DNA of 64,000 nucleotides from Nitrosopumilus sp. (GCA_965204345.1 OZ241981.1:1568001-1632000), one strand, 5' to 3'; numbered from the stretch's first letter, positions 4,108 through 48,147 are shown. The notes: generated by a model not told the origin, from the sequence alone. Program-made: numbers and translations.

Positions 4108-4334
4108 CGCCCAATTTCTTGTCTGAAAATAAAGTTTTTTAACTTTGATAAGGTTACAATCCAAACCAAAACAAGGATTAACGCAATTGCAGCCTTGATC
4201 ACAGATGCAACAAGCCAGTTTAGATCACCAAAACCGGCAATGGTTATTGGTCCTAGTAGATTAACTACGATTCCGCCGCCAACCATCATTAGAACCCACA
4301 TTGCAAAAAGAAATCTATACAGACCAAACTTCAA
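4104..4334 (-). CDS. Small hypothetical membrane protein
   Basis: 76 aa with two hydrophobic segments; start overlaps the stop of the upstream glycosyltransferase. Confidence 0.7.
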   Translation of the reverse strand: MKFGLYRFLFAMWVLMMVGGGIVVNLLGPITIAGFGDLNWLVASVIKAAIALILVLVWIVTLSKLKNFIFRQEIGR

Positions 4335-5326
4335 AGTTTTACACCCATCATAAATGCAGTGATTACTGCCAGTGTCCCTGAAAATATTGCCAGCTTGAAG
4401 ATCGCAAATCCGACTTGCTTCTCAGACAATGGTCCTGCGCCTGTTAAAATCAGTCTCACCAAAGTGACAGGCGCTTTTGCATCATCTGTTGCCTTTAGTT
4501 TGAAATCCTCGGTATGCTCAACTGGGACGCCGCTGATTTGCCGATGCTCTACAACTCGTTTTACGCTTGAGAGAAACAAAAACGAATTGATTATTGCAGG
4601 CAGTAGGGCTACTGTTGCAACAATTTCTACCTCGCCCACAATGGCAATGGTGCCATACATTGCACCAAATGCCAGGGCTCCAGAATCACCAGGAAAAATT
4701 TTGCTTGGAATCTTGTGGTATTTGTAAAATGCCAAGGAAACAAACCCAAGCGGCAGACTGGCTATTGCAATCTCATAGTTTTGCATGACAAACAGACAAA
4801 TGGATAGTGAGAAACCTGCAATGACCATAAAGCCGCTTGCAACACCGTTTAGCACATCAATTGAATTAATTGTATTTCCAGTTACAGAAATCATGAAAAC
4901 TATCAATACCAAATACAAAATAGGAATTTGTACTTCGCCAAATAACGGGAACGCAAGATTTGTATCATATGCACCAAGTGCAATTATTGGAAGCGCTGCA
5001 ATTCCAAGTGCCACTGGTTTGAACCAGCCTCCCATGACTTTTCTATCATCAACATATCCAATTGCAAAAGCAGCAGACGTTGTAACCATAATTGCAAGAA
5101 TCTCATTTGTCTGTAAAAACGCATAAAGAACAATTTCGGATGCCACTATCCCGAAAATAATTGACAGGCCCCCGGGCCTTGCTATCATGATGTCTCCTTT
5201 TTTGTTCACGTCTTTTACTGTAAAATTTCTTTTTTCTAGAAATCTGATCAGCGGAGGAGTTGTTGCAAATACGACAAAAAATGCAACAATGCATGAGATT
5301 ACTGCAGGTATTACTAGCTCAATCAA
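4331..5326 (-). CDS. UDP-GlcNAc:dolichol-phosphate GlcNAc-1-P transferase (MraY/GPT family, AglH-like)
   Basis: Multi-pass membrane protein with GYVDD, NTINSIDVLNG and IFPGDSG motifs. Confidence 0.88.
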   Translation of the reverse strand: MIELVIPAVISCIVAFFVVFATTPPLIRFLEKRNFTVKDVNKKGDIMIARPGGLSIIFGIVASEIVLYAFLQTNEILAIMVTTSAAFAIGYVDDRKVMGGWFKPVALGIAALPIIALGAYDTNLAFPLFGEVQIPILYLVLIVFMISVTGNTINSIDVLNGVASGFMVIAGFSLSICLFVMQNYEIAIASLPLGFVSLAFYKYHKIPSKIFPGDSGALAFGAMYGTIAIVGEVEIVATVALLPAIINSFLFLSSVKRVVEHRQISGVPVEHTEDFKLKATDDAKAPVTLVRLILTGAGPLSEKQVGFAIFKLAIFSGTLAVITAFMMGVKL

Positions 5327-7453
5327 TTATCTAACCCTTTGTAGTTCTGCCTTTATGTTATCTGCTATGGTTGAGCCAATTTTATCAATCTCTGCCAATT
5401 TGTTTACCCGAATTTTTCTCAAATCATCCAAATTCTTTATCCCGTGTTTGTAAAGAATCCTGGCTCTGACTCGTCCAATTCCCTTGACTCTGACTAGATC
5501 AAGCAGTTCCTCTCTGATTCCATAAACAACCCTTCTTCTCAAATCACCCAGCTCTTCAAGCAAGTCGGCTCTTTGGACATTCTTTGAAATCTCTCTCAAG
5601 CAGTACGAGAGCCAGTTGGCATTTTCAGCCATTCTGTGCATGTCTCCGGATTCAATTCCTAATCTATCAGATAGGGATAGTTCAGTAGACTCGGTAATCC
5701 AAGACTGTAAAGCAAGCAGGCTCCTTGAGCAGTCATATTCAGATATCGGCTCTAGTAACTCTGAGGAATTATTCTCAATTAATAGACTGGCAGCTTCGTA
5801 GTCCTTTTGCCGAAGTGAGAATTTTGGGAAAAACTCCTCAGAGTTTGTAATCAGATGCAGGTATCCAAAAGTATGTTTTCTGTCTTGAGATACGCCCTCA
5901 ATTGCATCCCTAAAGTCTGTGGCAGTCACCGGATCAATGTACAGCATGGATGCCTTTTTTCCAAACTCAGTGGCAGCGTATCTTTGGCCCTTTTTTATAA
6001 TTAAGAGCTTGCTTGATAAAAACCTCAAGGAGATATCAATTGCAAACTTTATGGTTGGTTTTCTTGATTGCAATCCTCCCAGAGTCTGCAAAAAGAATTC
6101 CAGAATTTCCTCTTTTTTAATTCCCGGATGAGTTACTATGACACTTAGAATATGGGTCCGCAAAGACTTGTCATCAGTAATTCTTGATTCAATTGGTTCT
6201 GGCTCTCCATCAATGTAGTGCTCTGTCAGATCCTCCGTGTTTCCATTTCCGACAATTATTGATTCCCCATAATCATCATACTGCGGTCTTCCGGCCCGTC
6301 CGCAAAGCTGCTTGTATTCCAGGATGCTAATTGGCCTGTTTGCACCGACCTTTGCATTGTATCTGTTTACGTTTGATATTACAACCCTTCTTGCAGGCAG
6401 GTTAACGCCTGCTGCCAGTGTGGGAGTTGATGACAGCAGCTTGATGGTTCCCTTGCGAAATTCTGCCTCGACGGTCTCTCTGCACCTCTGATTCAGTCCC
6501 GCATGATGAAACGCAACCCCCTTTTTTACAAGCAGCGCCAGCGTCTTTACCAATTCGGTATGCTCGTTTTCAGACAGAATTTTTCTTGATGCCTCTTCTA
6601 GTGCTGTAATCTCTTTTTTTTCTAGCATTTTTGATATCACATCAGATGCCTTTGTTGCCAAAGACTTTGAGCGGGTTCTGGTTTCTGCAAACACCAGGGA
6701 TTGGCCCCCCTGTTCTACTGACTGCACGCCCAAGTCAATTGGGGTTCCACGTAAGCTGCGCTTAACCTCAAATGTCTTGCCATCACTCATTGTAACCTCG
6801 CCTCCGTCACATACCCCCTCAGAGAGAGGAACCGGTCTCCAGTCGTTTGTTACCAGCTTGCAACCAAGCCAATCTGCAATTTCATCAGAATTTGTAATTG
6901 TTGCGCTAAGACCGACAATCTGGGGTCTGGTATCTAGTAATTTTAACTGTGTTAGAATCATCTCAAGTGTCGGACCCCTGCTTTCATCTCCAATCAGGTG
7001 CACTTCATCAGAAATAACCAGACCTATATCATCAACCCATTCGGCACCATGCCTGATGACTGAATCCATCTTTTCATTAGTCAATATCAGCACGTTGCTT
7101 TTTTCTAGATTTTTTTCAATGTTTTCAAAGTCCCCGGTAGATACTGCGACCCTTACTTTGTTTCCCAAAGATACCTTTTCCAATTTTTTAAACTCTGTGA
7201 ATTTCTCAGCAGCTAGTGCTCGCAACGGACTGAGATAAACCACCTTTCCTTTGTTTTTTGAAATATAGCTCATCATTGCAAGCATTGCAATCAGGGTCTT
7301 TCCGCTTGCAGTGGGGGCAGAAACCAAAATGCTCTTCTCATCTAATAGTCCGGACTTTACACTGTCTGCCTGTGGGGGATACAATTCCTCAAAACCCTGG
7401 GATCTTAGAAACTCAATTGCAGAATTTGGAAGTTTCAGCTTATCTATTTTCAT
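5327..7453 (-). CDS. hel308: Hel308/Hjm Ski2-like SF2 DNA helicase
   Basis: APTASGKT, DEVH, GLSAT, FHHAGL, TLAAGVNLPA, QLCGRAGRP and C-terminal HhH (VKGIGRVRAR). Confidence 0.93.
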   Translation of the reverse strand: MKIDKLKLPNSAIEFLRSQGFEELYPPQADSVKSGLLDEKSILVSAPTASGKTLIAMLAMMSYISKNKGKVVYLSPLRALAAEKFTEFKKLEKVSLGNKVRVAVSTGDFENIEKNLEKSNVLILTNEKMDSVIRHGAEWVDDIGLVISDEVHLIGDESRGPTLEMILTQLKLLDTRPQIVGLSATITNSDEIADWLGCKLVTNDWRPVPLSEGVCDGGEVTMSDGKTFEVKRSLRGTPIDLGVQSVEQGGQSLVFAETRTRSKSLATKASDVISKMLEKKEITALEEASRKILSENEHTELVKTLALLVKKGVAFHHAGLNQRCRETVEAEFRKGTIKLLSSTPTLAAGVNLPARRVVISNVNRYNAKVGANRPISILEYKQLCGRAGRPQYDDYGESIIVGNGNTEDLTEHYIDGEPEPIESRITDDKSLRTHILSVIVTHPGIKKEEILEFFLQTLGGLQSRKPTIKFAIDISLRFLSSKLLIIKKGQRYAATEFGKKASMLYIDPVTATDFRDAIEGVSQDRKHTFGYLHLITNSEEFFPKFSLRQKDYEAASLLIENNSSELLEPISEYDCSRSLLALQSWITESTELSLSDRLGIESGDMHRMAENANWLSYCLREISKNVQRADLLEELGDLRRRVVYGIREELLDLVRVKGIGRVRARILYKHGIKNLDDLRKIRVNKLAEIDKIGSTIADNIKAELQRVR

Positions 7454-9537
7454 ACTCGGTTATAGTGACCGGGTTTTGATTCATAAATAGATGCTTCTCT
7501 GAGCATTCTTTGGATGTACTTTCTTGCCTCCTCTTCTGTGAATTTTTCACTCTTTTCTAGTTCCTTGACAAACCCCTTTTCATCTACCGGTATCTTGTTG
7601 TCCCCTTCAAGGCCCTTGAGTACGTCCATGAACAGCTGCATCTTTGAGACCTCGCTTCTTGGCTTTCCTTGCAATACGCCAAGATCCACCTTGCCTGTAT
7701 TGACATCAACTCCTGCATCTTGCAGCATGCTCTGAATTAGAAAGATTGCACGCTCTGCATCCTCTTCTTCTACCTTGTCTTTCATGAGTAGTCTTGCCCT
7801 TGCAGTAGAAAGCCTGATAATTCCCTCCAGTTGCCTGGGGGTAACTGTAATCATTTCTTCAGATTCCACATTTCTCATCTGCAGATAATAGTCCAAGATC
7901 TTTGTTTCTGCATCCTTTGTTAGTTCCGGTTCTCCGCGCTTTGCATATGCCAAATATTTTGTCAGTAAATCAACATCAACTACAGATTTTTTATCAATTT
8001 TTTGCGGAGTGTGCAAATCAATGATGTGCCTTGCAATCTGAGTGTCTCTTTCTCTGGTTGGAATGTCCCTTACAACAAAGATCAGGTCAAACCTTGTAAG
8101 CAACGGAATTGGCAGATTGACGTTTTCTGTAATGTTTTTGAATGGATCATACTTTCCATACATTGGGTTTGCAGCAGCTAAGATGGAAGTTCTGGCATTT
8201 AGCGTAGCTACGATGCCGCCCTTTGCAATGCTTGCAGACTGTTGCTCCATAACCTCGTGCAATGCACTGCGGTCTTCAGGTTTCATTTTGTCAAATTCGT
8301 CTATGCTTACGAGTCCCTGATCACCTAGTACGACGGCTCCTGCCTCTAGCATCATAATTCCGGTCTTGTCTCGAACTACTGCGGCAGTAAGACCAGCTGC
8401 GGTAGAACCCCTGCCAGAAGTGTACAGGCCTCTTGGTGCAATTCTTGCACAAAACTTTAGCATCTCGGATTTTGCAGTACCGGGATCTCCGACTAGAAAT
8501 ACGTTAATGTCCCCTCTGATCTTGCTTCCATCGCCAAGCAGCCGCTGATTGGAACCGACAATAAGTAACAGAATAGCCTCCTTGATTAGTGACTGGCCCT
8601 GAATGTGTGGTGCAAACGAATCAATCAATCTTTGGTATACATCGGGACTTTGGCCTAACCTCTTGATCATCTCTTCTTCTTCAGGAGAAATTTCCTCTCT
8701 TCCAATCTTTCTGTCAGTTTTAGAACCGCGTCCACTCAAAAATTCAATATTGTTTCCCTCAATTCTTAATCTGTACAATCCGCTGTGGCCTCTCTGAATT
8801 CCTGCAACGGATTCCTGCTCAACTCTGACTATGCCTGTGAGAATAACTCTGTCTCCGGGCCTTGAGTTATCTACCAAATCCTGCCTGGTTGTGACGTCAA
8901 TATAGTGGGGCAGCTGTCCTGGGGGCAGGTCTTCTGGAAGTTCCTGCAGTCTTAGTATCTGAAAATCAATAAACTTGCTTGCTTCAGGTTTTAGCTCAAA
9001 ATCCCTGTGCTTGCAGGCAGGATTATCACAGACTATGGGAATTTTCACATCCATCCCTTTGATTTGAATCACCTTGGTTGGATGCTCATCAGGACATACA
9101 AAGACCAATTCTTTTGCAAGCGGCTTTACCTCTGATGCTCTGACCACCATTCCTGAAACGCTGGTAATATGACCGATGGTTTCTGCATTGATCTGTCTTA
9201 GACTTCGCTCCAATGGGAAATTGATGAGCCTTACACGGACTTCATCTTTGATCTTTTCTGCATAATCGGGAAATCTTGTCTGCAGTGCTTCCTTGATTGC
9301 TCTTGCAAACGCATCAAATATCCTATCGGGATTTGTAGCAAAGATTGACTCAATTTGCGGTTCTATTACCAGATCATTGTAATCGACGATGATGTATTTG
9401 GAATTTTTTGGCATCATCTCATCGATTGCATCTACATACTTGTAGTTGCCATCCCTGTCCTTGAATCTAGTAAGAAATTCTTTTACTTTGTCTGACAGTG
9501 CAGAATCCGTAAATGTGCTAGCTTGAGCGGTGCTCAT
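7450..9537 (-). CDS. mcm: MCM replicative helicase
   Basis: GDPGTAKS Walker A, IDEFDKM Walker B, AAANP, RFDL arginine finger, N-terminal Zn motif. Confidence 0.97.
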   Translation of the reverse strand: MSTAQASTFTDSALSDKVKEFLTRFKDRDGNYKYVDAIDEMMPKNSKYIIVDYNDLVIEPQIESIFATNPDRIFDAFARAIKEALQTRFPDYAEKIKDEVRVRLINFPLERSLRQINAETIGHITSVSGMVVRASEVKPLAKELVFVCPDEHPTKVIQIKGMDVKIPIVCDNPACKHRDFELKPEASKFIDFQILRLQELPEDLPPGQLPHYIDVTTRQDLVDNSRPGDRVILTGIVRVEQESVAGIQRGHSGLYRLRIEGNNIEFLSGRGSKTDRKIGREEISPEEEEMIKRLGQSPDVYQRLIDSFAPHIQGQSLIKEAILLLIVGSNQRLLGDGSKIRGDINVFLVGDPGTAKSEMLKFCARIAPRGLYTSGRGSTAAGLTAAVVRDKTGIMMLEAGAVVLGDQGLVSIDEFDKMKPEDRSALHEVMEQQSASIAKGGIVATLNARTSILAAANPMYGKYDPFKNITENVNLPIPLLTRFDLIFVVRDIPTRERDTQIARHIIDLHTPQKIDKKSVVDVDLLTKYLAYAKRGEPELTKDAETKILDYYLQMRNVESEEMITVTPRQLEGIIRLSTARARLLMKDKVEEEDAERAIFLIQSMLQDAGVDVNTGKVDLGVLQGKPRSEVSKMQLFMDVLKGLEGDNKIPVDEKGFVKELEKSEKFTEEEARKYIQRMLREASIYESKPGHYNRV

Positions 9538-10048
9538 TTAGATCTCCTGTTATCTGTTTTTCAAATTCTGCGCTGTTATCATGAATTGTCTTGTAGAAAA
9601 CATTTTCTTCCACAGTCAGTTTACCGTATAGTTCGGAATTGAGCTTGATGGAATCTGCAAGTTTTACCAGCTTGCCTCTACGCATCCGGAATAATTCTAG
9701 CATCATGCTTTCAACTTTGTCAAAATCATTGCCATTAAGTTCCTTCATTGACTCTCTTAGCTTGATGTAAAAGTGCGGATCCAGTGTGGATATTTGGTAT
9801 TCTCCAACCATCTTTTCTTTTGATAGCGCTTGTTTTAGCTCAGTTATCATGTCTGGAGAATCTAGTACTCCTAAATTATTATCAGAGAGAATTTTGCCTA
9901 CCCACTGTGGCAGGTTATTGACCTCACCCTGAGTGCCCTCAATTTTCATTCCGGCCACATTATACTTGAAATCCTGATTGACTGTAACCTTGGCATCCTT
10001 TAGGCGGTATCCTATTGAATGCACTTTTTCTACTTTGTCTATTTCCAT
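9518..10048 (-). CDS. GINS complex subunit (Gins23/Psf2-like)
   Basis: LPQWVGKIL B-domain, LDPHFYIK, MRRGKLVKLA, LTVEE; directly upstream of mcm as in other archaea. Confidence 0.82.
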   Translation of the reverse strand: MEIDKVEKVHSIGYRLKDAKVTVNQDFKYNVAGMKIEGTQGEVNNLPQWVGKILSDNNLGVLDSPDMITELKQALSKEKMVGEYQISTLDPHFYIKLRESMKELNGNDFDKVESMMLELFRMRRGKLVKLADSIKLNSELYGKLTVEENVFYKTIHDNSAEFEKQITGDLNEHRSS

Positions 10049-10242
10049 TTTAGATCACTTTTACTGATTTAGATCCTCAAGTATGGGATCGATCACTTCT
10101 GTTAACAATTTGGTGAGATCATTTGATCCTAACTGAATTTGAGACTGATCGCACCTGTTTTGCCCCAAAGTCTGATTTTAAGATATGCCATATCATAATA
10201 ACCAATTCGGATTTATTAATGGGACTCAGCTTTTGATCTCAT
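10049..10242. promoter_or_regulatory. Divergent gins-mcm-hel308 / rfcS promoter region with a GATC cluster
   Basis: GATC at 10053, 10072, 10087, 10091, 10117, 10125, 10147 and 10235; TATA-like TTTATTAA near 10212 upstream of rfcS. Confidence 0.7.
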
Positions 10243-11193
10243 ATGGCTGCAACAGGCATGTGGGTAGAAAAGTATAGGCCAACAAAACTCTCTGAGATGG
10301 TAAATCAAACCGAGGTGATCGGCAGTCTGGAGGCCTTGATCAAGGATCCAACTGACATGCCACACCTGATGTTTTCAGGTTCTGCCGGAGTTGGAAAAAC
10401 AACCACTGCATTGTGTCTCTCAAGACAAGTCTTGGGAGAGTATGCCAAAGACTACACGCTAGAGCTAAACGCCTCTGATGAAAGGGGAATTGGCATGGTA
10501 AGGGAAAAAGTCAAAAAGTTTTCAAGATTTGCAGGAATGGCCGATGTGCCATTTAAGATCATAATTTTGGATGAGGCAGACGAGATGACAGGGGATGCCC
10601 AAACAGCATTAAGGAGAATAATTGAGGACACTGCAAAAATTTGCAGGTTTATCTTTATTGCAAATAACATTTCAAAGATTATCGACCCAATTCAAAGCAG
10701 ATGTGCTGTCTTTAAATTCATATCCGTTTCTGAGGAGGACATTATTGGCAGGCTAGAAGAGATTGCCAAAAAGGAAAAAATAAAGACTGACAAAAAAGGA
10801 CTCAAGGCAATTTATGAGTATTCAGAAGGGGACCTGAGACATGCAATTAATCTCATGCAGGCAACTGCAAGTCTTGGTGGAATTACCGAAGAGAACGTAA
10901 AGTCATCAGCCGGACTAACAAAGACTAGTGACGTTGATAAAGTTCTCGAAACTGCATTATCTGGCAAAGTTGCAGAGGCCAGAGAGAAGATGATAGAGCT
11001 AATCAAGGTTTATGGAATGTCAGAATCTGATTTTCTAAAGTATCTAAACTCTGCGGTATTCAAGTCAAAACATGCCAAACTTGGAGACATTCTGGAGGTA
11101 ATTGCAAAGTATGATTATAGGGTACTAGTCGGAGCAAATTCTGAGATTCAGCTGTCTGCAATGCTGGCAGAACTAGCCAAGATAGAGAATTAG
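10243..11193 (+). CDS. rfcS: Replication factor C small subunit
   Basis: WVEKYRP, GSAGVGKTT, ELNASDERG, LDEADEM, SRC motif, GDLRHAIN. Confidence 0.96.
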   Translation: MAATGMWVEKYRPTKLSEMVNQTEVIGSLEALIKDPTDMPHLMFSGSAGVGKTTTALCLSRQVLGEYAKDYTLELNASDERGIGMVREKVKKFSRFAGMADVPFKIIILDEADEMTGDAQTALRRIIEDTAKICRFIFIANNISKIIDPIQSRCAVFKFISVSEEDIIGRLEEIAKKEKIKTDKKGLKAIYEYSEGDLRHAINLMQATASLGGITEENVKSSAGLTKTSDVDKVLETALSGKVAEAREKMIELIKVYGMSESDFLKYLNSAVFKSKHAKLGDILEVIAKYDYRVLVGANSEIQLSAMLAELAKIEN

Positions 11194-11269
11194 AAAAATG
11201 CAGACTAGAAGTCTTTTGTCTGCCCACAGACAACAAATCAGCATGTTTTGGAGCTAACCATAAAGTGGT

Positions 11270-11566
11270 TCACACAGGCATCAGGTTTTTGTCTTTCTGC
11301 ATTTGTCTATAGGACTGAAAATAGTCAGAACCGGTAATGCGCATGAACACCCAAGATCTCAAAATCTTTTCTTGATTCGTGCCTGTCCTAACACTTGATT
11401 TTAAGGCAAGAAATGCTTGTAAAATCCTGACTAGTGTGATTCCATCAGCCTTTTGCCATCTTGTGCATTTATCAGCATCTTTTTGAGTATCAAAAAATCC
11501 CATTTTGATACATTGTATCTGTTCTTTGCATTTAGCAAATAGGGATTCAAACACAGAATATTCCAA
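11270..11566 (-). CDS. Hypothetical protein (uncertain)
   Basis: 98-aa ORF in an otherwise empty gap, with no recognisable motif. Confidence 0.3.
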   Translation of the reverse strand: MEYSVFESLFAKCKEQIQCIKMGFFDTQKDADKCTRWQKADGITLVRILQAFLALKSSVRTGTNQEKILRSWVFMRITGSDYFQSYRQMQKDKNLMPV

Positions 11567-11592
11567 CCCTTTTTTTGCATTAATTTTTTATT

Positions 11593-11847
11593 TTGTTATT
11601 GTCTGGAAAAAGTGTGGCGTTAAAATGGTCAAAATTTCATTTCTATGATTGGATTCCGATGGTTGTCCGGCTACAGTCTGTCAAGGATAGTGATTGGCAG
11701 CAAACTCGCAAATCCATGCTTAAAACAACTTTGAAATTCAAATATGACACATTGGAAAAGTGGCTTGAACAAAACAAATACTCTGAAAAATCTAAAGTTC
11801 AGACTCAACATTACGTACAGGCATTAAGACGGAGCGGCCTGCTTTAG
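11593..11847 (+). CDS. Small basic hypothetical protein
   Basis: 84-aa ORF with protein-like composition (Trp-rich, ends VQTQHYVQALRRSGLL); stop overlaps the convergent gene. Start uncertain. Confidence 0.6.
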   Translation: MLLSGKSVALKWSKFHFYDWIPMVVRLQSVKDSDWQQTRKSMLKTTLKFKYDTLEKWLEQNKYSEKSKVQTQHYVQALRRSGLL

Positions 11848-13184
11848 TAATTTGATTTGTTTAGATACTCCATAATCTTTGGATGACACAAGATTGAGCT
11901 GTGTGCTGCCGAATCAGTCCCAATGCCATAGCTAACTGTAGAATCCCCCACAAAATACAGTCCTTTGATTTTGCTTACTTTATGCGGCATTTTTTGCTTC
12001 CAAACCATTCCCGGTTCTTTTACCACTGCCTCTACCAGTTTCCATGCCATTGGACGCTCCCAAAGCAAGGAATCCTCAAAATTGGGATAAATTTCAGATA
12101 TCTCCTTTCTCATTTTTTCGCTTACCTCCTTGATCTTTGATGGGCTTTCAGTATATTCTGATGGGACAGGGGTTCCGGCCATCAGGAGGTGCTGTCCCGG
12201 AGGAGAAACTTTTGGGGTTATGTTTGTTATGAAAAAAATCCCTTTTGCAGTATAATCCCCAACTGGAAACACCACCTGTCTTGTGTCTATCCTCTCAGAA
12301 GTACAAAAATGAGTCTCAATAACAGATGTTGTCTTGTTTAGTTTTTCTATCTGCTCTAACATCTTTTTATCAAAGACTCCCTCATCAAAAAGCTGCTTTA
12401 CTGCCAGATATGCCGGATACGAAACGACTACGCAATCAGATTTTATGAGCTTGTTGTTACTGTCAATAACTCCTTCCACTCTGTTATCCTTGATCAGAAT
12501 CTTCTTAATCGGCGTGCTAAGGTTGACCCTGTTTCCGTTTTCCTGTATGTATCTTGATAGTATTTCTGATATCCTGTCATATCCACCTTCGTCCGGGTAG
12601 GCAAATTCGCTAGTTCCTCCCTTGAATGGATTTGCCCTAATCATGGTCCTCGTGAATTCTCCCAAGGAAATATGCTCTGGCGTGTCTGCAAAGGCAAGCA
12701 TACAGACTGCATCAAAAAAGGATCTTGTGCTGTGATCTAATTTTTCTGTCAAGTCAACTAATGATCTGTTGTCATTTTTTTCAGCCTTGTCCATAGATGA
12801 GAAAGCCATAGGAAGCAAAATACGCAAAAGTTTCAGCCTACTCTTAAATGGTATTAGTGACAATCCAAAAATATCAGAAATTCCTTTGGGATACTTGAAG
12901 AATCCTTGTCCGTTATAAAATGCAATATCGTCTACTATGGCAAGTTTTAGTCTGGAAACAATATCAACCTGTTCAAGAATCTGGTATACTGCTGATGTTT
13001 TGTAAAAAGGCATAATGTGAAATCCGTTATCCAAAATGTGGTTGCGAAACACCGAACATGCGGTCCTGCCTCCGGGCTTGGAGGATTTTTCAAATATCTG
13101 TACAGATATGTTGTCTTTTGTAAGCAGAGCTCCAGTTGATAATCCACTAATGCCTGCACCTATTATTGCCACTTTTTTTAACAA
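11844..13184 (-). CDS. FAD-dependent oxidoreductase, phytoene desaturase/amine oxidase family
   Basis: IIGAGISGL...FEKSSKPGGR dinucleotide fold, DNGFH, and C-terminal GLYFVGDS...GIG. Confidence 0.85.
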   Translation of the reverse strand: MLKKVAIIGAGISGLSTGALLTKDNISVQIFEKSSKPGGRTACSVFRNHILDNGFHIMPFYKTSAVYQILEQVDIVSRLKLAIVDDIAFYNGQGFFKYPKGISDIFGLSLIPFKSRLKLLRILLPMAFSSMDKAEKNDNRSLVDLTEKLDHSTRSFFDAVCMLAFADTPEHISLGEFTRTMIRANPFKGGTSEFAYPDEGGYDRISEILSRYIQENGNRVNLSTPIKKILIKDNRVEGVIDSNNKLIKSDCVVVSYPAYLAVKQLFDEGVFDKKMLEQIEKLNKTTSVIETHFCTSERIDTRQVVFPVGDYTAKGIFFITNITPKVSPPGQHLLMAGTPVPSEYTESPSKIKEVSEKMRKEISEIYPNFEDSLLWERPMAWKLVEAVVKEPGMVWKQKMPHKVSKIKGLYFVGDSTVSYGIGTDSAAHSSILCHPKIMEYLNKSNY

Positions 13185-13612
13185 TTCTACAAATTCTCAA
13201 CTATGCACTTTTTTAAACTACCCTAGATGCAAAACAAGTTACCACTAGGTACGAGTATGCATCACCCTGAAAATCATCTGAATAAATTTTTGAATAAGTG
13301 AGAAAATGCATAATCAGAATAGACATGCCAGCTAACGATAAAACAACAGCGATAAAATTATTTTTTCAGGATTATCACTAGCAAGATGAGAAAACTCTTT
13401 TCTGGCACAAAAGAAGTACTGCCTAAAAATAGCATCCAAAATTTTATTGCTGAATTATAGTGAGGTTCTTTTGCTGTATGTGACTGGGAATCCTTGATAG
13501 TTTTGGAGAAAACTCAGGTCTGTAAACTTGACAGCCAAAACTCTATACCGCATTTCTTAACAGTGTCAACCGACAGATTTTCTCTAGCGTGTACCATCAT
13601 TAATTATAAAAA

Positions 13613-13696
13613 CGCAGAGAGAGGGATTTGAACCCCCGTATGCTTGCGCACACAGGCTCTCAAGGCCCGCGCCCTACCGAGCTAGGCGACCTCTGC
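13613..13696 (-). tRNA. tRNA-Ser (anticodon UGA), intron-less, long variable arm
   Basis: Reverse complement folds as a cloverleaf: GCAGAGG/TCTCTGC acceptor stem, CGGGC-CTTGAGA-GCCTG anticodon arm, variable arm, GGGGG-TTCAAAT-CCCTC T arm, discriminator G. Confidence 0.95.
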
Positions 13697-13769
13697 AGAA
13701 GTTCTTAGATAATAGCGATTAAAATCTGTTGAGGTAAAATAGAAAAATAAGAAAAAAGAAAAAATTTCT

Positions 13770-14419: not shown

Positions 14420-14941
<522 letters not shown>

Positions 14942-15058
14942 TTACAGTTATTATTTAAATCTAGAGAGCTTGGTTTCTGCCAAACAGGCAAATGATCGAT
15001 CAATTAGGAACGAAAAATTTCCTTACGTTCATAACGATCAAGGTATAATTCTCCGGAT

Positions 15059-15724
15059 ATGGATATTATAAAGTATAATGTGTATAGGGGGCCAAACCTT
15101 GGAGTGTACATTACAGTTAATGACAGTATTGGGCTAGTCCCGATGGGATTTGCAGAAAGCAAAGCCGAGAAACTTGCAGAATATATGAACATTGAAATTC
15201 ATTATACGGCAGTTGCAAATACCCGGCTGATTGGCGCACTAGCAGTAATGAACAACAAAGGAATCTTGCTGCCTAGCACTGCATATCAAGACGAGTATGA
15301 TTATTTGAAGAAAGAGACTGACTTGGAGGTTGGTGTCTTAGATACAAAGTTTAACGCGTTAGGAAACGTGATCTGTGCAAATGACAAAGGGGCAGTGGCC
15401 TCTCCATGGCTTTCAAAAGACGATTGCAGTACCATATCTGATGTCTTGGGCGTTGAGGTAATTCAGAAAAAGATTGCCGGACACAACCAGACAGGTGTGG
15501 TGCTAGTTGCAAATAATTCAGGCGCTGCAATTCATCCGGAAACTGACGAGGAGGACATGAAGGTTATATCCAACACTCTAGGCGTAAAAGTAGAGCAGAG
15601 CTCAATTAACAACGGCATTCCATATGTGTCATCGGGAATTCTGGCAAACAACCACTGTCTGGTGGTGGGTTCACTGACTACCGGCCCTGAGATTATGATG
15701 CTGACTAGGGCGTTTCTAAATTAA
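15059..15724 (+). CDS. eif6: Translation initiation factor 6 (aIF6)
   Basis: PNLGVY, RLIGAL, ALGNVICANDKGA, SINNGIPYVSSGILAN, TTGPE. Confidence 0.93.
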   Translation: MDIIKYNVYRGPNLGVYITVNDSIGLVPMGFAESKAEKLAEYMNIEIHYTAVANTRLIGALAVMNNKGILLPSTAYQDEYDYLKKETDLEVGVLDTKFNALGNVICANDKGAVASPWLSKDDCSTISDVLGVEVIQKKIAGHNQTGVVLVANNSGAAIHPETDEEDMKVISNTLGVKVEQSSINNGIPYVSSGILANNHCLVVGSLTTGPEIMMLTRAFLN

Positions 15725-17851: not shown

Positions 17852-18016
17852 GTTTGCAAGTTCCAATGGCATAATTCTCATGCTTTGGAATCTTTTACAT
17901 TACATTTGTGAATCCTGATAAAATACTCGCTGGAGGGATGGATTCTCTCATAGATGAAAATGCTGACTGGGGAAAAAACGTAAAAGAGATTAAAGCCAAA
18001 GATTAGGGTTGGAGAA

Positions 18017-18568
18017 ATGAAGCCGATAATAGTTTTTGCAATAACAATTCCAATTGTTGCTGCTGTTGTGGTGGCATTTTCCGTGTTTTTAGTGCCGCCA
18101 ATGGGGCAGCAAAATTTTGAGGAGGACACACATGAGAATCAACATGAAGATGCCGCATGGCAATCACTACAAAAAATGCAGGGTGAATCTGTGGTTTCTG
18201 CAAAGTGCTCAGGCACTCAGAGATGCATCTTGGGAGTTGTAACTGACATCATTGATGGGGATACCATACGAGTCGGTGGGGAATCAGTTCGTTTTGCGCT
18301 ATCATCAGCTCCGGAACTTGATGAAACAAGAGGAACGGAGGCAAGGGAATTCATTGGTGCTATCTGTCCTCCGGGCTCTGATGTTACAGTCGATCAGGAT
18401 GACTTGCAGCCTGTTGACAGGTATGGCAGAGTGCTCGGTGTGATTTACTGCAATGACGTGAATCTTAATGAAAGATTGCTAGAATCCGGATGGGGCTATC
18501 TTTCATCACAGTTTTGCAGTACAAGTGAGTTTGAAAATGCTTCATGGGCTCAGAAATACGGATGCTAG
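18017..18568 (+). CDS. Secreted/membrane-anchored thermonuclease (SNase family)
   Basis: N-terminal TM, IIDGDTI, VRFALSSAPE, DRYGRVLG, NLNERLLESG. Confidence 0.88.
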   Translation: MKPIIVFAITIPIVAAVVVAFSVFLVPPMGQQNFEEDTHENQHEDAAWQSLQKMQGESVVSAKCSGTQRCILGVVTDIIDGDTIRVGGESVRFALSSAPELDETRGTEAREFIGAICPPGSDVTVDQDDLQPVDRYGRVLGVIYCNDVNLNERLLESGWGYLSSQFCSTSEFENASWAQKYGC

Positions 18569-18623
18569 CCTCTTTTTGGGACACTAGAACATGGAATAAA
18601 TATCTCTGAGAAAATTGCACATT

Positions 18624-18803
18624 ATGACAAAAAGCATCAGTTGTTCAGATGCAGGAAAAGACTGTGGATGGTCTGCAACTGCAGAATCTGAAGAAGAGTT
18701 GATGAGGCAGGTTACAGAGCATGTTCTATCTGATCATAAGGAAATTGATATAAATGATGATGGTAACGTTGCCCAAATCAAAGCACTCATCAAAGAAGTT
18801 TAA
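18624..18803 (+). CDS. DUF1059-like small metal-binding protein
   Basis: SCSDAGKDCGWSATAESEEELMRQVTEH...H pattern; ATG at 18624 preferred. Confidence 0.8.
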   Translation: MTKSISCSDAGKDCGWSATAESEEELMRQVTEHVLSDHKEIDINDDGNVAQIKALIKEV

Positions 18804-18825
18804 ATTTCTATAACTAGGCCAAGAT

Positions 18826-19035
18826 ATGCCACATTTTTTTGATGTTAATTTTGATCTTGTATTGAGTTCTAGCCCACGTTTAACACATGATATACTTGAA
18901 GAGAATGTATACGTAATAAAATTTTGGTCTAGGCCTCAAGAACCATTAGATATAAGATCAGAACTTGTTGAATCTGGCAAATCTTTGAAAACAAATTCTA
19001 AAAAAATGGTGGGTCATATTCAAAAAATAAAATAG
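18826..19035 (+). CDS. Small hypothetical protein (uncertain)
   Basis: 69-aa ATG ORF at the edge of the AT-rich region, no motif. Confidence 0.35.
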   Translation: MPHFFDVNFDLVLSSSPRLTHDILEENVYVIKFWSRPQEPLDIRSELVESGKSLKTNSKKMVGHIQKIK

Positions 19036-19102
19036 TAACACGACAGAATAAAGCTTACAGGTTATCTTTTGAGTATCACTTGCACTTGATCCAACTAGTC
19101 TT

Positions 19103-20242
19103 TTAGATTAAACAAGCAACTACTATTTCAACCAGTTCTGAATCAGATTCATATGGTAATTTTACAGTAGTAAAACTAGGTGTTTTGCTAATTTCTTCAT
19201 ATTCTTCTACTTCCATGCCGTCAACTAAATAAAAGAAATAGTGAGAATCTGCAATTCCGTTGAATTCAATACAATAGTCTTTAAACATATTAGACTCAAT
19301 GGATGGAAGCGTTACCACCAAATTCCCTTCCTCTTTTGTAGGTGTTAGAGATACATTCAAAACATAATCCTCAATCACATATCCTGCATCTGAATAAATC
19401 TCAACAGAGTCAACTATTCCTTCATTTGTTTGATATGTAATGTGATGATAGTCCCCATCATAAAAAACGGATGTGGTAACCTGTGGTGCGTCATATTCTG
19501 AATATAACACAGTATCCCAGCTTAGGTGTTTTGCGGTTTCAAAGTAAACACAGGCCCAATTAGAATTAGGCCGTAAAACAAGTACGTGCTCGGGATTAGG
19601 GCAAGTGAGAGGTTCACCTACTTGCCTGTCCTCTAAAATTTCCTTTAGTGTATGATGGAAATGCCATGTTGAGTTTGTTAAAACCATTTTTTCAAAGATG
19701 GTTTCCACATCTACATCAGCTGAATTTTCTAATTCTGTGATAAATGCATCTCTGTTTCCTGCATAACTGCTAGTCTCAAAGTCATCAGGATCAACCATAA
19801 CTATCATCTTTCTGTATTTGTTGTCTGGAAATACATCATAAACACCATTTTTGTTCAGATAATTCCCAGTCAAGGTCTCCAAAGCATTATCAAAGATTGC
19901 CTGTGTCTCCTCATTCAATATGTAAGACTCGATATTCAATTTTTCAACTTCAGCTGCCTTTTTCCATAATCTGTCGTTTTCTGCCTTTTTGTCTTTGATT
20001 CGTTTTTCAATCTTTATGATATCCGCACTAGATAATTTTGATTTATCTTTTAGTTTTTTGCTATCCTCTTCAATTGATTCCTTGTTATCCCAAATCTTTG
20101 CGAGGATCTCCTCATACAGAGATACATAGTCTGTCATGTCTGATTCTTTCTTTGCTTCTGAAAGTTGTATGCCACTAAATGGCAAAATCATTGTAGCAAT
20201 CAAGGATGCAAACAGTATTGTTTTTGCGTTTTTTGCAATCAT
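19103..20242 (-). CDS. Secreted mosaic hypothetical protein
   Basis: Signal peptide KTILFASLIATMILPFSG, coiled coil, CPNPEHVLVLRPNSNWACV module, and a C-terminal domain resembling that of the PEFG-CTERM proteins. Confidence 0.8.
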   Translation of the reverse strand: MIAKNAKTILFASLIATMILPFSGIQLSEAKKESDMTDYVSLYEEILAKIWDNKESIEEDSKKLKDKSKLSSADIIKIEKRIKDKKAENDRLWKKAAEVEKLNIESYILNEETQAIFDNALETLTGNYLNKNGVYDVFPDNKYRKMIVMVDPDDFETSSYAGNRDAFITELENSADVDVETIFEKMVLTNSTWHFHHTLKEILEDRQVGEPLTCPNPEHVLVLRPNSNWACVYFETAKHLSWDTVLYSEYDAPQVTTSVFYDGDYHHITYQTNEGIVDSVEIYSDAGYVIEDYVLNVSLTPTKEEGNLVVTLPSIESNMFKDYCIEFNGIADSHYFFYLVDGMEVEEYEEISKTPSFTTVKLPYESDSELVEIVVACLI

Positions 20243-20435
20243 TACTACATGTTATATGCGTACATTACCTAAAAATTGATATTGATTTGCAACATGATTT
20301 TTCATTATACAATATTTTAATTTTTTTGCAGCATACAGTGGAACTCATTCAATAAAGATGATGCTGAATTTTGCAGTGCTGTAAAATGTGGAATATCTGG
20401 TACTGTATGAAATGCAATCAAGATCTAAAATTAAC

Positions 20436-20915
20436 CTAAAATGTCCATTTTTCACTTTGAAACATTCCTGTCAATTTCAAACTTTCAATACCGAATGTTC
20501 TTGAAACGTGAGGGATTCGATCAGTTTTGATATCATTTTCATCTGTAACTATAATTGGCTTTGAGCCTAAAATATTTGATTTCAAAGATCTTGCCAGTGC
20601 TATAAGAAAAGGATCTGCTGTTTCTCTTGTAGCATGAGGGCTTATCAACTTAGGATATTTATGTACTATTTCTTGTGCAAATTTGATTACATCTGAAGAA
20701 TTATCCAAAAACATTCTCTTATTTTCCTTACACCACTTTATCAAATCACCATCTCCTCCTTGTTCAATCTCTTTGAAAACTTGATTAGGTGCCAAAATGT
20801 TTTTGGCTTTAATCAAATCTTCAACGCTTCCCCATAAACTAGAAAATACTTTTTTTGGGTAATGCTGAGATAATAGTATCAGTGCACTTGCATCAACAAC
20901 ATAAATCGAGTTCAT
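20436..20915 (-). CDS. PIN-domain protein (DUF4411-like)
   Basis: YVVDASALI, VFKEI, ADPFLIALA, IVTDE, RIPHV: PIN acidic residues in a DUF4411-like layout. Confidence 0.85.
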   Translation of the reverse strand: MNSIYVVDASALILLSQHYPKKVFSSLWGSVEDLIKAKNILAPNQVFKEIEQGGDGDLIKWCKENKRMFLDNSSDVIKFAQEIVHKYPKLISPHATRETADPFLIALARSLKSNILGSKPIIVTDENDIKTDRIPHVSRTFGIESLKLTGMFQSEKWTF

Positions 20916-20921
20916 TCTTTA

Positions 20922-22100: not shown

Positions 22101-22627
22101 CTTTTTGAATATTATTTTAATGGTATTAATTAATTATAGATTCCAAATGATTCTAAATATCAGACCATCTCTTACCATGAACGTATCGATTAATTCCATA
22201 AACTCTTTTTGCTTTATGTTGAGTACAGGCTCCTTTACAGACCATGATAAAATTATGCCAAAAAATACAATTTATGAATCTTGAACCATCAAACTTAATA
22301 ACTTTAAACATGGAAAAACTATGTCGACATCTCCTGAAAGGGAACTTTTGTAAGGTATCGCACCTTGCTAGGCTACTGGAAATGTCCTTGCGGACTTTTC
22401 AGTAGAGATTTAATTCAAAGCAAATCCTCTGATTGGAAATCTCTTGATTTTGGATTACTGTAAATTTACCATCCTAACGTAACAATAAACCAGCTGAATG
22501 TAACACTGGGTTTGAAATGGGAGAAATTTGTGAAATGTACCTAAAGATATACCAGTGTAAAATTAGCAACATAACTTGTCTGTCAAATTTTAACAACTCT
22601 TATTTTGGATATGGTTTGATGAATTGT

Positions 22628-23883: not shown

Positions 23884-23890
23884 TAATCTT

Positions 23891-46190: not shown

Positions 46191-46267
46191 AAACTTTTGA
46201 TTGCTTGTTTGTATATTTTCTTTACTATCAAAAACTAAAAAATGAAAAAATAAGAAGTTGTGTGATT

Positions 46268-47158: not shown

Positions 47159-47222
47159 CTTGTTGCGATTTACACCTGTCTCTATTTATGTATATTTAAA
47201 AAGAGAAAAAAGTTGTGTTAAC

Positions 47223-48086: not shown

Positions 48087-48147
48087 TCTAATTCCACCCA
48101 GCTATGTTGTTATTTATGTATATTTAAAAAGAGAAAAAGGGTGAAAT

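What the first reader, a model, noticed from the sequence alone, without database searches (positions are those of the whole stretch)
10049..10242. Dense GATC cluster in the divergent promoter of the replisome genes: possible methylation-timed replication control in an archaeon
Seen: 8 GATC sites in 186 bp (7 within 98 bp, including tandem GATCGATC, with GATCACTT and GATCCT each twice), against roughly one expected by chance. The spacer drives gins-mcm-hel308 one way and rfcS the other. Established: in gammaproteobacteria GATC clusters at oriC and the dnaA promoter are read in the hemimethylated state (Dam/SeqA). Inference: a Dam-like methyltransferase and an unknown hemimethylation reader could couple helicase and clamp-loader expression, or a secondary origin, to the cell cycle. 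No ORB G-string is visible, so a canonical Orc1/Cdc6 origin is less likely.
Basis: partly seen in the sequence, partly recalled or inferred. Interest (0 to 1): 0.8.

Follow-up and report, generated by a model that had tools for sequence, protein, structure and literature searches.

The report
Conserved GATC array at replisome promoter
Seven GATC sites packed between the replicative-helicase genes and the clamp-loader gene of an ammonia-oxidising archaeon are kept in almost all of its relatives, so this is a real, apparently undescribed control element that may link DNA methylation to making the replication machinery.

Summary
GATC occurs at window 10053, 10072, 10087, 10091, 10117, 10125, 10147 and 10235, where 0.68 is expected. 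This is the densest of the window's 41 intergenic regions.

It is not chance. All 80 related Nitrosopumilaceae loci keep gins23 and rfcS divergent. The spacer holds at least 6 GATC per 100 bp in 71 of 80 loci, 5 in 7, 4 in one and fewer in one. Fourfold-degenerate sites of rfcS are only 53% identical between pairs.

Seven boxes are conserved. The eighth (10235) is specific to the window. Beyond GATC the boxes share only about 1.3 bits of flank information. However, a 12-bp palindrome, GATCAATTGATC, is unique to this spacer.

Published work shows a persistent orphan GATC m6A methyltransferase in 27 of 29 Nitrososphaerota genomes, and 98% GATC methylation in the genome that supplied locus L075.

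Best reading: a GATC-box control module that contains the gins23-mcm-hel308 promoter and abuts the rfcS TATA, probably read in a methylation-sensitive way. A methylation-blind operator array is nearly as likely. An origin is not supported.

The reader protein, the methylation state at these sites and the transcription starts are untested. I found no description in the searched literature.

The parts
10049..10153 (.). Conserved GATC-box array (boxes 1-7), running from the gins23 start codon outwards
   Evidence: Alignments of 63 long-type and 14 short-type spacers. GATC columns are 95% identical to the consensus, other block columns 78%.
10052..10060 (.). Box 1, AGATCACTT; the GATC lies 5-8 nt upstream of the gins23 ATG
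   Evidence: Present in 57 of 58 canonical long spacers. Repeat family D1.
10068..10078 (.). Box 2, TTTAGATCCTC
   Evidence: Present in 49 of 58. Lost in L013, L027, L029 and L065.
10086..10102 (.). Boxes 3 and 4, GGATCGATCACTTCTGT (relatives: GGATCGATCAATTCTGT)
   Evidence: Present in 55 and 53 of 58. GATCGATC lies inside 64 of 77 defined spacers and at only 3 places elsewhere in the sequences searched.
10114..10131 (.). Boxes 5 and 6, TGAGATCATTTGATCCTA; relatives carry the perfect palindrome GATCAATTGATC
   Evidence: Both boxes are present in 58 of 58. The palindrome is in 68 of 77 defined spacers and has 0 hits outside spacers. Its 3 other hits are at the spacer position of loci I had dropped. 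The window has one mismatch.
10143..10153 (.). Box 7, GACTGATCGCA
   Evidence: Present in 48 of 58 long spacers. Absent from all 14 short spacers.
10235..10238 (.). Eighth GATC, 5-8 nt upstream of the rfcS ATG; specific to the window
   Evidence: Only the window among 63 long spacers has GATC in the last 14 nt. In 11 of 14 short spacers a GATC lies in the last 12 nt at an equivalent place.
10154..10173 (.). Unconserved segment of the spacer; serves as an internal neutral control
   Evidence: Identity to the consensus falls to about 20-60% directly right of box 7.
10174..10223 (+). Conserved right-hand boxes GATTTTAAG and TAACCAATTCGGATTTATTAATGGG, including the rfcS TATA-like TTTATT at 10212-10217 (-31 from the ATG)
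   Evidence: alignment. TATA-like hexamers start at about -29 to -33 before many genes of the window. Only the GATTTATTA(A/G)TGGG part survives in the short form.
9518..10048 (-). gins23, first gene of the leftward operon
   Evidence: NCBIfam NF053565 Gins23, 129.6 bits, cut-off 120. Pfam Sld5.
7450..9537 (-). mcm
   Evidence: Pfam MCM, MCM_OB, MCM_lid and MCM_N. Found next to gins23 in 78 of 80 loci.
5327..7453 (-). hel308-type helicase
   Evidence: Pfam DEAD, Helicase_C, Helicase_dom4_arc and HHH_5. The NCBIfam helicase models score below their cut-offs. Found in 69 of 80 loci.
10243..11193 (+). rfcS (replication factor C small subunit)
   Evidence: NCBIfam NF001679, 374 bits, cut-off 303.

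Best explanation
The roughly 100 bp next to the gins23 start codon form a conserved cis-regulatory module made of seven GATC-core boxes.

In the compact 123-125-bp form of the spacer, the array fills all the DNA between the gins23 ATG and the rfcS TATA box. The gins23-mcm-hel308 core promoter must therefore lie inside the array, and the rfcS promoter directly abuts it. This is an inference from the anatomy.

The lineage carries a persistent orphan GATC N6-adenine methyltransferase (from the literature). The boxes are therefore expected to be fully methylated for most of the cycle and hemimethylated just after the fork passes.

I propose that an unidentified protein binds the boxes with GATC as its recognition core. 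I further propose that its binding depends on the methylation state, so that transcription of the replicative helicase operon, and probably of the clamp loader, is set by replication or methylation status.

Shown: the array, its conservation, its position relative to the genes and to the rfcS TATA, and GATC as the only element common to all boxes.

Inferred: protein binding, methylation at these sites, methylation sensitivity, and the direction of the effect on transcription.
For: 1. Density. There are 7 GATC in 98 bp against 0.36 expected per 100 bp, and the spacer ranks 1 of 41 intergenic regions.
2. Conservation. In 76 usable loci the spacer GATC count is 7 in 44, 6 in 16, 5 in 4, 8-10 in 10, 4 in 1 and 2 in 1, against 0.33-0.89 expected. 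Every 100-bp window with at least 6 GATC in 1.38 Mb (window plus loci) lies in this spacer.
3. Selection. Fourfold-degenerate sites of the adjacent rfcS are 53% identical (median over all pairs; saturation about 39%). The spacer segment right of box 7 is unalignable, yet GATC columns are 95% conserved.
4. GATC is the common unit. No other permutation of A, C, G and T has more than 3 consensus sites, and the 3 are ATCG, which overlaps the GATC boxes. Flanks add about 1.3 bits over background GATC sites (10.3 bits against 8.9-9.2).
5. The window's own lineage has changed AATT to ACTT or ATTT in boxes 4 and 5/6 while keeping every GATC.
6. Rearranged lineages (L003, L039, L069; L005, L071) keep 8-10 GATC although the order of the sub-modules changed.
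7. A GATC lies just upstream of the rfcS ATG in 11 of 14 short-type spacers and in the window alone among 63 long-type spacers, in different sequence contexts.
8. Methylation in the lineage. Orphan GATC m6A MTase group HG3 is in 27 of 29 Nitrososphaerota genomes, and its authors suggest an unknown epigenetic function (PMC10609329, passages). In Nitrosarchaeum BD3, the source of L075 with 7 GATC in its 125-bp spacer, 9446 of 9618 GATC are methylated (PMC6329791, passages). GATC is also methylated in marine thaumarchaeal MAGs (PMC8919816, passages).
9. No RNA or coding alternative fits.
Against: - No methylation data exist for these sites and no MTase gene lies in the window. No reader protein is known, and no SeqA-family domain is among the 59 window ORFs scanned. 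That covers only 64 kb.
- The middle of the array is conserved nearly base for base, not just at GATC.
- Three or four boxes share the longer motif GATCAATT, including a palindrome unique to this spacer. This is what an ordinary dimeric regulator would leave.
- Lineage-specific extra GATCs are not in excess. There are 6 positions in 58 canonical spacers, mid-range among the 24 ACGT permutations (range 2-9). I therefore see no sign of selection for GATC number as such within that group.
- The conservation test is not corrected for phylogeny.
- All 80 loci belong to one family, and more distant Nitrososphaerota were not examined.
- The gins23 TATA and transcription start could not be placed. The only A/T-rich candidate near the ATG (TCTAAA at -25 to -20) is out of register with the window's other promoters and is not conserved.
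Confidence: 0.45

Rival explanations
1. Methylation-blind operator array. The boxes are binding sites of an ordinary sequence-specific archaeal transcription factor, a dimer that recognises GATCAATTGATC and related half-sites. It co-regulates the two divergent replisome promoters. That the core reads GATC is incidental, and methylation is tolerated or irrelevant.
For: - The perfect 12-bp palindrome is in 68 of 77 defined spacers and nowhere else in 1.38 Mb.
- GATCAATT occurs three times in the canonical array.
- CGATCAATT-type boxes recur in a second conserved divergent spacer, ferredoxin/eIF-6. There the mean is 1.74 GATC in about 127 bp over 65 loci, against about 0.4 expected from the loci's background GATC density.
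- The central 55 bp are at least 90% conserved at most positions, not only at GATC.
- There is no excess of newly gained GATCs.
Against: - Boxes 1, 2 and 7 do not carry the AATT extension, and over all boxes the flanks add only about 1.3 bits.
- The window keeps all seven GATCs while changing the AATT part in two boxes.
- The 13-mer CGATCAATTCTGT with up to 1 mismatch is essentially confined to this spacer: 67 hits there, 5 in ferredoxin/eIF-6 and 5 elsewhere, 2 of which are the gins23/rfcS spacers of dropped loci.
- The window shows no regulon signal: 27 matches with up to 3 mismatches against 25 expected.
- In a lineage where about 98% of GATC are methylated, any protein that contacts GATC in the major groove meets N6-methyl groups, so indifference to them would itself need explaining (inference).
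Confidence: 0.35
2. Non-transcriptional chromosome site. The GATC array is a loading, anchoring or boundary site for a chromatin, SMC-type or segregation protein, or for the MTase itself. It lies in this spacer for reasons unrelated to expression of the flanking genes.
For: - The array is unique within the sequence examined. A single-copy chromosomal landmark would look like this.
- No canonical gins23 TATA could be placed inside it.
Against: - Synteny with gins23 and rfcS is kept in 80 of 80 loci, and the array stays tightly apposed to both start codons even when the spacer shrinks to 123-125 bp. This argues for a link to these promoters.
- Weaker GATC boxes occur at a second promoter region.
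Confidence: 0.08
3. Replication origin or secondary origin, regulated through GATC as in oriC.
For: - In E. coli, oriC is a GATC cluster (recalled knowledge).
- Archaeal origins often lie next to replication genes.
Against: - The only repeats are the GATC-bearing ones plus a short A/T palindrome.
- Spacer GC is 0.35 and the lowest 40-bp window is 0.25, so there is no long A/T-rich unwinding element.
- No orc1/cdc6 gene lies in the 64 kb.
- The whole spacer is 123-125 bp in 14 genomes and must hold two promoters.
- N. maritimus is reported to have a single origin, and that origin is recovered by Ori-Finder 2 (PMC4010727 and PMC4164010, passages). I did not see its coordinates.
- GC skew in the window follows the coding strand only.
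Confidence: 0.04
4. No function: chance, or a by-product of local mutation or recombination.
For: On the window alone, the cluster is only borderline after correcting for all tetramers (about 0.06).
Against: The seven boxes are retained across 70 distinct block sequences (of 72 aligned) while neutral sites are near saturation.
Confidence: 0.01

Closest known systems
GATC clusters of the E. coli dnaA promoter and oriC, sequestered by SeqA when hemimethylated (Dam/SeqA system; details recalled, not from a call)
   Same: A dense run of GATC sits in the control region of genes for the replication machinery, in a lineage with an orphan GATC m6A methyltransferase. Neighbouring sites are 4-26 bp apart, which is within the range I recall SeqA needs for paired sites.
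   Different: The host is an archaeon, and the genes are helicase and clamp-loader genes rather than the initiator. No SeqA homologue is known or seen. Part of the array has a longer sequence motif. Methylation, hemimethylation lag and sequestration are all untested here.
CcrM/GcrA methylation-dependent cell-cycle promoters of Caulobacter (PMC3667746 and PMC4647560: search listing and abstracts only)
   Same: An orphan adenine methyltransferase combined with a factor whose action at promoters depends on methylated sites, controlling cell-cycle genes.
   Different: The motif there is GANTC and each promoter has one or a few sites. The system is bacterial and sigma-70 based. Here there are seven sites in 98 bp at an archaeal TBP/TFB promoter.
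Dam-competition switches (pap with Lrp, agn43 with OxyR; recalled)
   Same: GATC sites embedded in the binding sites of a regulator, so that binding and methylation exclude each other.
   Different: Those are phase-variation switches of surface structures with 2-3 GATCs. Nothing here suggests bistability.
MluI cell-cycle boxes (MBF) and E2F sites upstream of eukaryotic DNA-synthesis genes (recalled)
   Same: A short palindromic box repeated upstream of replication genes. This is a functional analogy for a methylation-blind reading.
   Different: Different motif and factors, and no DNA methylation is involved.
Sulfolobus cell-cycle promoter control (TFB2, aCcr1 boxes; bioRxiv 10.64898/2026.09.06.749720, passages)
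   Same: Archaeal cyclic transcription that includes gins23. Two to three repressor boxes occur per promoter.
   Different: A different phylum, and a named repressor box (aCcr1-box) that the passages describe without giving its sequence. The passages read make no mention of methylation.
Archaeal Orc1/Cdc6 origins with ORB repeats
   Same: An intergenic site beside replication genes that contains repeats.
   Different: Fails the tests for repeats, an unwinding element and orc1/cdc6 adjacency (see Membership tests).

Membership tests
Dam/SeqA-type GATC sequestration cluster | GATC density far above chance in the control region of a replication gene | tested here: met
   7 GATC in 98 bp. Uniform placement reaches this in 10 of 20000 trials. 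The spacer ranks 1 of 41 intergenic regions.
Dam/SeqA-type GATC sequestration cluster | The GATC sites themselves are conserved among relatives | tested here: met
   At least 6 per 100 bp in 71 of 80 loci. GATC columns are 95% conserved while fourfold sites are 53% identical.
Dam/SeqA-type GATC sequestration cluster | The organism has a GATC-specific N6-adenine methyltransferase and methylated GATC | not testable with these tools
   Only 64 kb of this genome is available and it holds no MTase. For the lineage: 27 of 29 Nitrososphaerota genomes carry the MTase, and 98.2% of GATC are methylated in the genome of L075 (passages).
Dam/SeqA-type GATC sequestration cluster | A protein that binds hemimethylated GATC (SeqA or an analogue) | not testable with these tools
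   No SeqA-family hit among the 59 window ORFs scanned against Pfam. The rest of the genome was not seen.
Dam/SeqA-type GATC sequestration cluster | Prolonged hemimethylation of the cluster after replication | not testable with these tools
   Needs per-strand methylation data from growing cells.
Archaeal Orc1/Cdc6 replication origin | Repeated ORB or mini-ORB elements | tested here: not met
   Only GATC-bearing repeats and one 10-nt A/T palindrome were found. The C-run at 10163-10166 is not conserved.
Archaeal Orc1/Cdc6 replication origin | An A/T-rich duplex unwinding element | tested here: not met
   Spacer GC is 0.35 and the lowest 40-bp window is 0.25. The spacer is only 123-125 bp in 14 genomes.
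Archaeal Orc1/Cdc6 replication origin | Adjacent orc1/cdc6 gene | tested here: not met
   None among the 59 ORFs of the 64-kb window.
Archaeal Orc1/Cdc6 replication origin | Marker-frequency peak or initiation in vivo | not testable with these tools
   Experimental.
Archaeal transcription-factor operator at a divergent promoter | TATA/BRE at the usual distance from the genes served | tested here: inconclusive
   rfcS has TTTATT starting at -31, like other genes of the window. No in-register, conserved TATA was found for gins23.
Archaeal transcription-factor operator at a divergent promoter | Dyad-symmetric site longer than a tetranucleotide | tested here: met
   GATCAATTGATC is in 68 of 77 defined spacers. 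The window has one mismatch (GATCATTTGATC).
Archaeal transcription-factor operator at a divergent promoter | The same motif at other promoters (a regulon) | tested here: inconclusive
   CGATCAATT-type boxes occur in the ferredoxin/eIF-6 spacer. There is no enrichment of the 13-mer in the window (27 against 25 expected). No other replication genes lie in the sequence held.
Archaeal transcription-factor operator at a divergent promoter | An identified cognate DNA-binding protein | not testable with these tools
   No candidate. The small ORFs downstream of rfcS are absent from all 80 loci.

The most novel reading that the evidence does not exclude
An archaeal analogue of Dam/SeqA control that is not homologous to it. 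When the replication fork passes the gins23-mcm-hel308 / rfcS control region, seven m6A-GATC boxes become hemimethylated. An unknown protein reads that state and resets transcription of the replicative helicase and clamp loader once per cycle. This would give the first concrete function for the orphan GATC methyltransferase that persists across Nitrososphaerota, and would be a cell-cycle timer in an archaeon that lacks CDKs.
Probability: 0.22. Interest if true: 0.9.

Novelty: new variant of a known kind. Interest (0 to 1): 0.7.

Why it matters
Surveys report that Nitrososphaerota keep an orphan GATC m6A methyltransferase almost universally, and that its function is unknown (PMC10609329, passages). 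How thaumarchaea time the expression of their replication machinery is also unknown.

This array is a specific, short and strongly conserved target at the promoter of the replicative helicase operon, so both questions can be tested on it directly. Suitable tests are methylation-state probes, pull-downs, per-site kinetics from existing SMRT data, and comparison of genomes with and without the MTase.

Even under the conservative reading, it is the first candidate cis-regulatory module for replisome genes in this ecologically dominant group.

Tried and rejected
- RNA element. RNAalifold on 19 diverse spacers in gins23 sense gave -4.67 kcal/mol. It predicted 12 pairs, nearly all GATC pairing with GATC; only 2 pairs showed a both-sides change (3 sequence instances), and the covariation term was +0.13 kcal/mol. 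Rfam gave no hit at E up to 1.
- DNA hairpin or cruciform. The z-score was -1.66, and 13 of 200 shuffles folded at least as well.
- Hidden coding. Only seven 20-49-aa ORFs overlap the spacer. Relatives have indels there.
- Origin. Rejected on repeats, A/T content, size, lack of orc1/cdc6 and uninformative skew.
- Excess of independent GATC gains. Not found.
- A common extended motif for all boxes. Weak, about 1.3 bits.
- A regulon in the window for CGATCAATTCTGT. Not found. The apparent 13-mer identity between the two spacers holds only at consensus level, with 5 loci in the ferredoxin/eIF-6 spacer.
- A candidate regulator among neighbouring small ORFs (11270-11566 on the minus strand, 11593-11847 on the plus strand). 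They are absent from all 80 loci and probably not genes.
- Other replication genes in the flanks of L001, L055, L060 and L079, to test a regulon. None among the 29 of 58 flank ORFs scanned against Pfam (the ORFs nearest rfcS, which match window genes already annotated, were left out).
- Papers not held: Ahlgren et al. 2017 and Pelve et al. 2013. One search was rejected for a bad character and re-sent.
- The supplement table of PMC10609329 was seen, but I could not map its columns to the GATC MTase group.
- No paper among those found by searches mentions a GATC cluster at gins23, mcm or rfcS.

Full report
THE OBSERVATION

The 194-bp spacer at window 10049-10242 holds GATC at 10053, 10072, 10087, 10091, 10117, 10125, 10147 and 10235. 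The tandem GATCGATC and the repeated GATCACTT and GATCCT are present as described.

The window has 231 GATC in 64 kb, slightly fewer than the 271 +/- 15 of dinucleotide shuffles. The spacer therefore expects 0.68. The best 100-bp window elsewhere in the 64 kb has 3 sites against 7 here.

With uniform placement of 231 sites, 7 within 98 bp occurs in 10 of 20000 trials. After allowing for 136 tetramer classes the figure is about 0.06. Tetramer clusters with lower Poisson probabilities exist in the window, at 28.56 kb and 37.8 kb. Of 41 intergenic regions this one ranks first: 41 GATC/kb against 3.4/kb for the rest and 3.5/kb for coding DNA.

THE GENES

- Leftward: gins23 (9518-10048; NCBIfam equivalog above its cut-off), mcm (7450-9537), a Hel308-type helicase (5327-7453) and a family-4 glycosyltransferase (4331-5326).
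- Rightward: rfcS (10243-11193).
- No DNA methyltransferase and no orc1/cdc6 lie among the 59 ORFs of the window scanned against Pfam.

RELATIVES

One scan of genome contigs with RfcS found 176 relatives. The best 80 were kept (82-92% identity). All are Nitrosopumilus, Nitrosarchaeum and similar genomes.

All 80 keep gins23 and rfcS head to head. The spacer is about 190 bp in 62 loci and 123-125 bp in 14. Four loci (L023, L045, L048, L052) were left out of the exact spacer counts because a tblastn match did not start at residue 1.

In the 76 counted loci the spacer has this many GATC, against 0.33-0.89 expected from each locus's own density:

| GATC in spacer | loci |
|---|---|
| 7 | 44 |
| 6 | 16 |
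| 5 | 4 |
| 8 | 5 |
| 9 | 3 |
| 10 | 2 |
| 4 | 1 |
| 2 | 1 |

Counting the densest 100-bp window in all 80 loci, the spacer has at least 6 GATC in 71, 5 in 7, 4 in one (L013) and fewer than 4 in one (L065). The four dropped loci have 6, 8, 6 and 9.

No other place in the 1.38 Mb held reaches 6. Two places reach 5 (L055 5262-5353 and L079 20239-20327). These flanks are largely syntenic copies of one neighbourhood, not a genome-wide sample. The first 600 nt of both flanking coding regions are at background density.

SELECTION

Fourfold-degenerate sites of rfcS are 53% identical (median of all pairs; saturation about 39%). The spacer segment right of box 7 does not align.

In a block alignment of 72 sequences (70 distinct; five rearranged ones left out), the 28 GATC columns are 95% identical to the consensus and the other 84 block columns 78%. 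The Mann-Whitney p of 1e-5 is not corrected for phylogeny.

In 58 canonical long spacers, boxes 1 to 7 are present in 57, 49, 55, 53, 58, 58 and 48 sequences. The eighth site of the window (10235) is found in no other long spacer.

ANATOMY

The canonical array reads GAGATCACTT, then about 12 variable nt, then TTTAGATCCTCAAGTATCGGATCGATCAATTCTGTTAACAATTTAGTGAGATCAATTGATCCTAATTAAT, then AGGCTGATCGC.

To its right the long form has:
- an unconserved stretch;
- the boxes GATTTTAAG and TAACCAATTCGGATTTATTAATGGG.

The TTTATT in the second box starts at -31 from the rfcS ATG. Many other genes of the window have a TATA-like hexamer at the same distance.

The 123-125-bp form keeps boxes 1-6 and joins them directly to GATTTATTAGTGGG. 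The array therefore fills all the space between the gins23 ATG and the rfcS TATA, and it must contain the gins23 promoter.

I could not place that promoter. The nearest A/T-rich hexamer (TCTAAA, -25 to -20) is out of register and varies among relatives. In 11 of 14 short spacers a new GATC lies just before the rfcS ATG, as it does in the window.

WHAT THE BOXES SHARE

No other permutation of A, C, G and T has more than three consensus sites, and the three are ATCG, which overlaps the GATC boxes.

Orientation-optimised profiles of the 211 distinct contexts of 525 spacer GATCs hold 10.3 bits. Equal-sized samples of background GATC sites hold 8.9-9.2 bits. All boxes together therefore share only about 1.3 bits beyond GATC.

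Against a pure GATC reading:
- Boxes 4, 5 and 6 share GATCAATT.
- The palindrome GATCAATTGATC is in 68 of 77 defined spacers and has no hit outside spacers. Its three remaining hits are at the spacer position of dropped loci.
- The central 55 bp are conserved at most positions.
- Lineage-specific extra GATCs are not more frequent than for comparable tetramers (6 positions; range 2-9).

For it:
- The window changed AATT to ACTT or ATTT in two boxes and kept every GATC.
- The rearranged lineages keep 8-10 GATC.

L065 has lost five GATCs, with substitutions confined to the outer G and C, while keeping the palindrome. L013, L027 and L029 have lost boxes 2 and 7.

ALTERNATIVES CHECKED

- No conserved RNA structure and no Rfam family.
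- No notable DNA hairpin.
- No conserved ORF.
- An origin is unlikely. There are no ORB-like repeats. GC is 0.35 with no long A/T-rich stretch. The spacer is very small in the short form. There is no orc1/cdc6 in the window. GC skew only follows the coding strand.
- N. maritimus is reported to have one origin, which Ori-Finder 2 recovers (PMC4010727 and PMC4164010, passages). The primary paper is not held, and I did not see the coordinates.

METHYLATION IN THE LINEAGE (from papers, passages read)

- A REBASE survey finds an orphan GATC m6A MTase group in 27 of 29 Nitrososphaerota genomes. It remarks that GATC and AGCT methylation may have a common, unknown epigenetic function (PMC10609329).
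- In Nitrosarchaeum BD3, 9446 of 9618 GATC are m6A (PMC6329791). Locus L075 comes from that assembly, by its record title, and has 7 GATC in 125 bp.
- A review reports more than 99% GATC methylation in Ca. Nitrosomarinus catalina and names the MTase (PMC11033074). The primary paper is not held, and it may say more about site distribution.
- Marine thaumarchaeal MAGs also show GATC methylation (PMC8919816).
- None of the papers returned by searches mentions a GATC cluster at these genes.

INTERPRETATION

The array is a conserved cis-regulatory module of the replisome promoters (about 0.8 for this general claim). I rank the finer readings as follows.

| Reading | Probability |
|---|---|
| Methylation-sensitive protein-binding array | 0.45 |
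| Methylation-blind operator array of an ordinary regulator | 0.35 |
| Non-transcriptional chromosome site | 0.08 |
| Origin | 0.04 |
| No function | 0.01 |

- The closest known system in logic is the Dam/SeqA-controlled dnaA promoter of E. coli (recalled knowledge).
- Membership cannot be claimed. The MTase in this genome, a reader protein and a hemimethylation lag are all untested.

LIMITS

- Only one family was sampled.
- Whole genomes were not available, so a genome-wide ranking and a search for other clusters at replication genes could not be done.

Noticed in passing
window 14930-15058; same spacer in 65 loci: The divergent ferredoxin-like (14420-14929, minus strand) / eIF-6 (15059-15724, plus strand) spacer also carries GATC boxes of the CGATCAATT type. 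The window has GATCGATCAATT at 14994 and GATC at 15036. In 65 loci the counts are 0 in 8, 1 in 19, 2 in 23, 3 in 12 and 4 in 3, a mean of 1.74 in about 127 bp against about 0.4 expected from the loci's background GATC density. It may be a second, weaker target of the same factor.
   Followed up: partly
L065 9808-10000; L013, L027, L029 9810-10000: L065 has only 2 of the 7 GATCs. Five were lost, four by a change of the G (to A or T) and one by C to T, with the flanks and the palindrome kept. L013, L027 and L029 have lost boxes 2 and 7.
   Followed up: no
window 10174-10223: Long-form spacers have further strongly conserved boxes: GATTTTAAG, a loosely palindromic ATAT..ATAT stretch (inverted repeat 10178-10198), and TAACCAATTCGG directly upstream of the rfcS TATA. 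All are deleted in the 123-125-bp form except the TATA part. They may be a second promoter or a regulator site for rfcS.
   Followed up: no
window 11200-13700: The amine-oxidase gene (11844-13184, minus strand) and two small ORFs downstream of rfcS have no counterpart in any of the 80 loci. In L001 a pair of ORFs and an eIF-6-length ORF follow rfcS directly, at the spacing of the window's ferredoxin/eIF-6 genes; I did not scan them against Pfam. This looks like an insertion specific to the window.
   Followed up: partly
window 18000-24000: A low-GC stretch (0.34 against about 0.40) holds a DUF4411 protein (20436-20915, minus strand) next to an IrrE/Peptidase_M78 protein (20922-22100, minus strand). 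This looks like a toxin-antitoxin-like or mobile pair.
   Followed up: no
window 28558-28651 and 37775-37890: Two dense short-repeat runs lie inside coding regions. CTGC/CAGC occurs 13-14 times at the 3' end of the S13 gene. CACC/CCAC occurs 13-14 times in an ORF with no family (37364-38380). Statistically these are stronger tetramer clusters than the GATC one, but they sit inside coding regions; I did not examine them further.
   Followed up: no
window 45390-48999: Four adjacent minus-strand ORFs (266-296 aa) have no Pfam family. At least two have near-identical upstream sequences, and four GATCAATT copies (46852, 47483, 48357, 48768) are spread over three of them.
   Followed up: no
whole window: GATC is mildly under-represented overall: 231 observed against 271 +/- 15 in dinucleotide shuffles, with 99 of 100 shuffles at or above 231.
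   Followed up: no
L060 16865-17782: A TFIIB-family (TFB) gene lies about 7 kb downstream of rfcS in Nitrosarchaeum LAS73. There is no evidence that it relates to the array.
   Followed up: no
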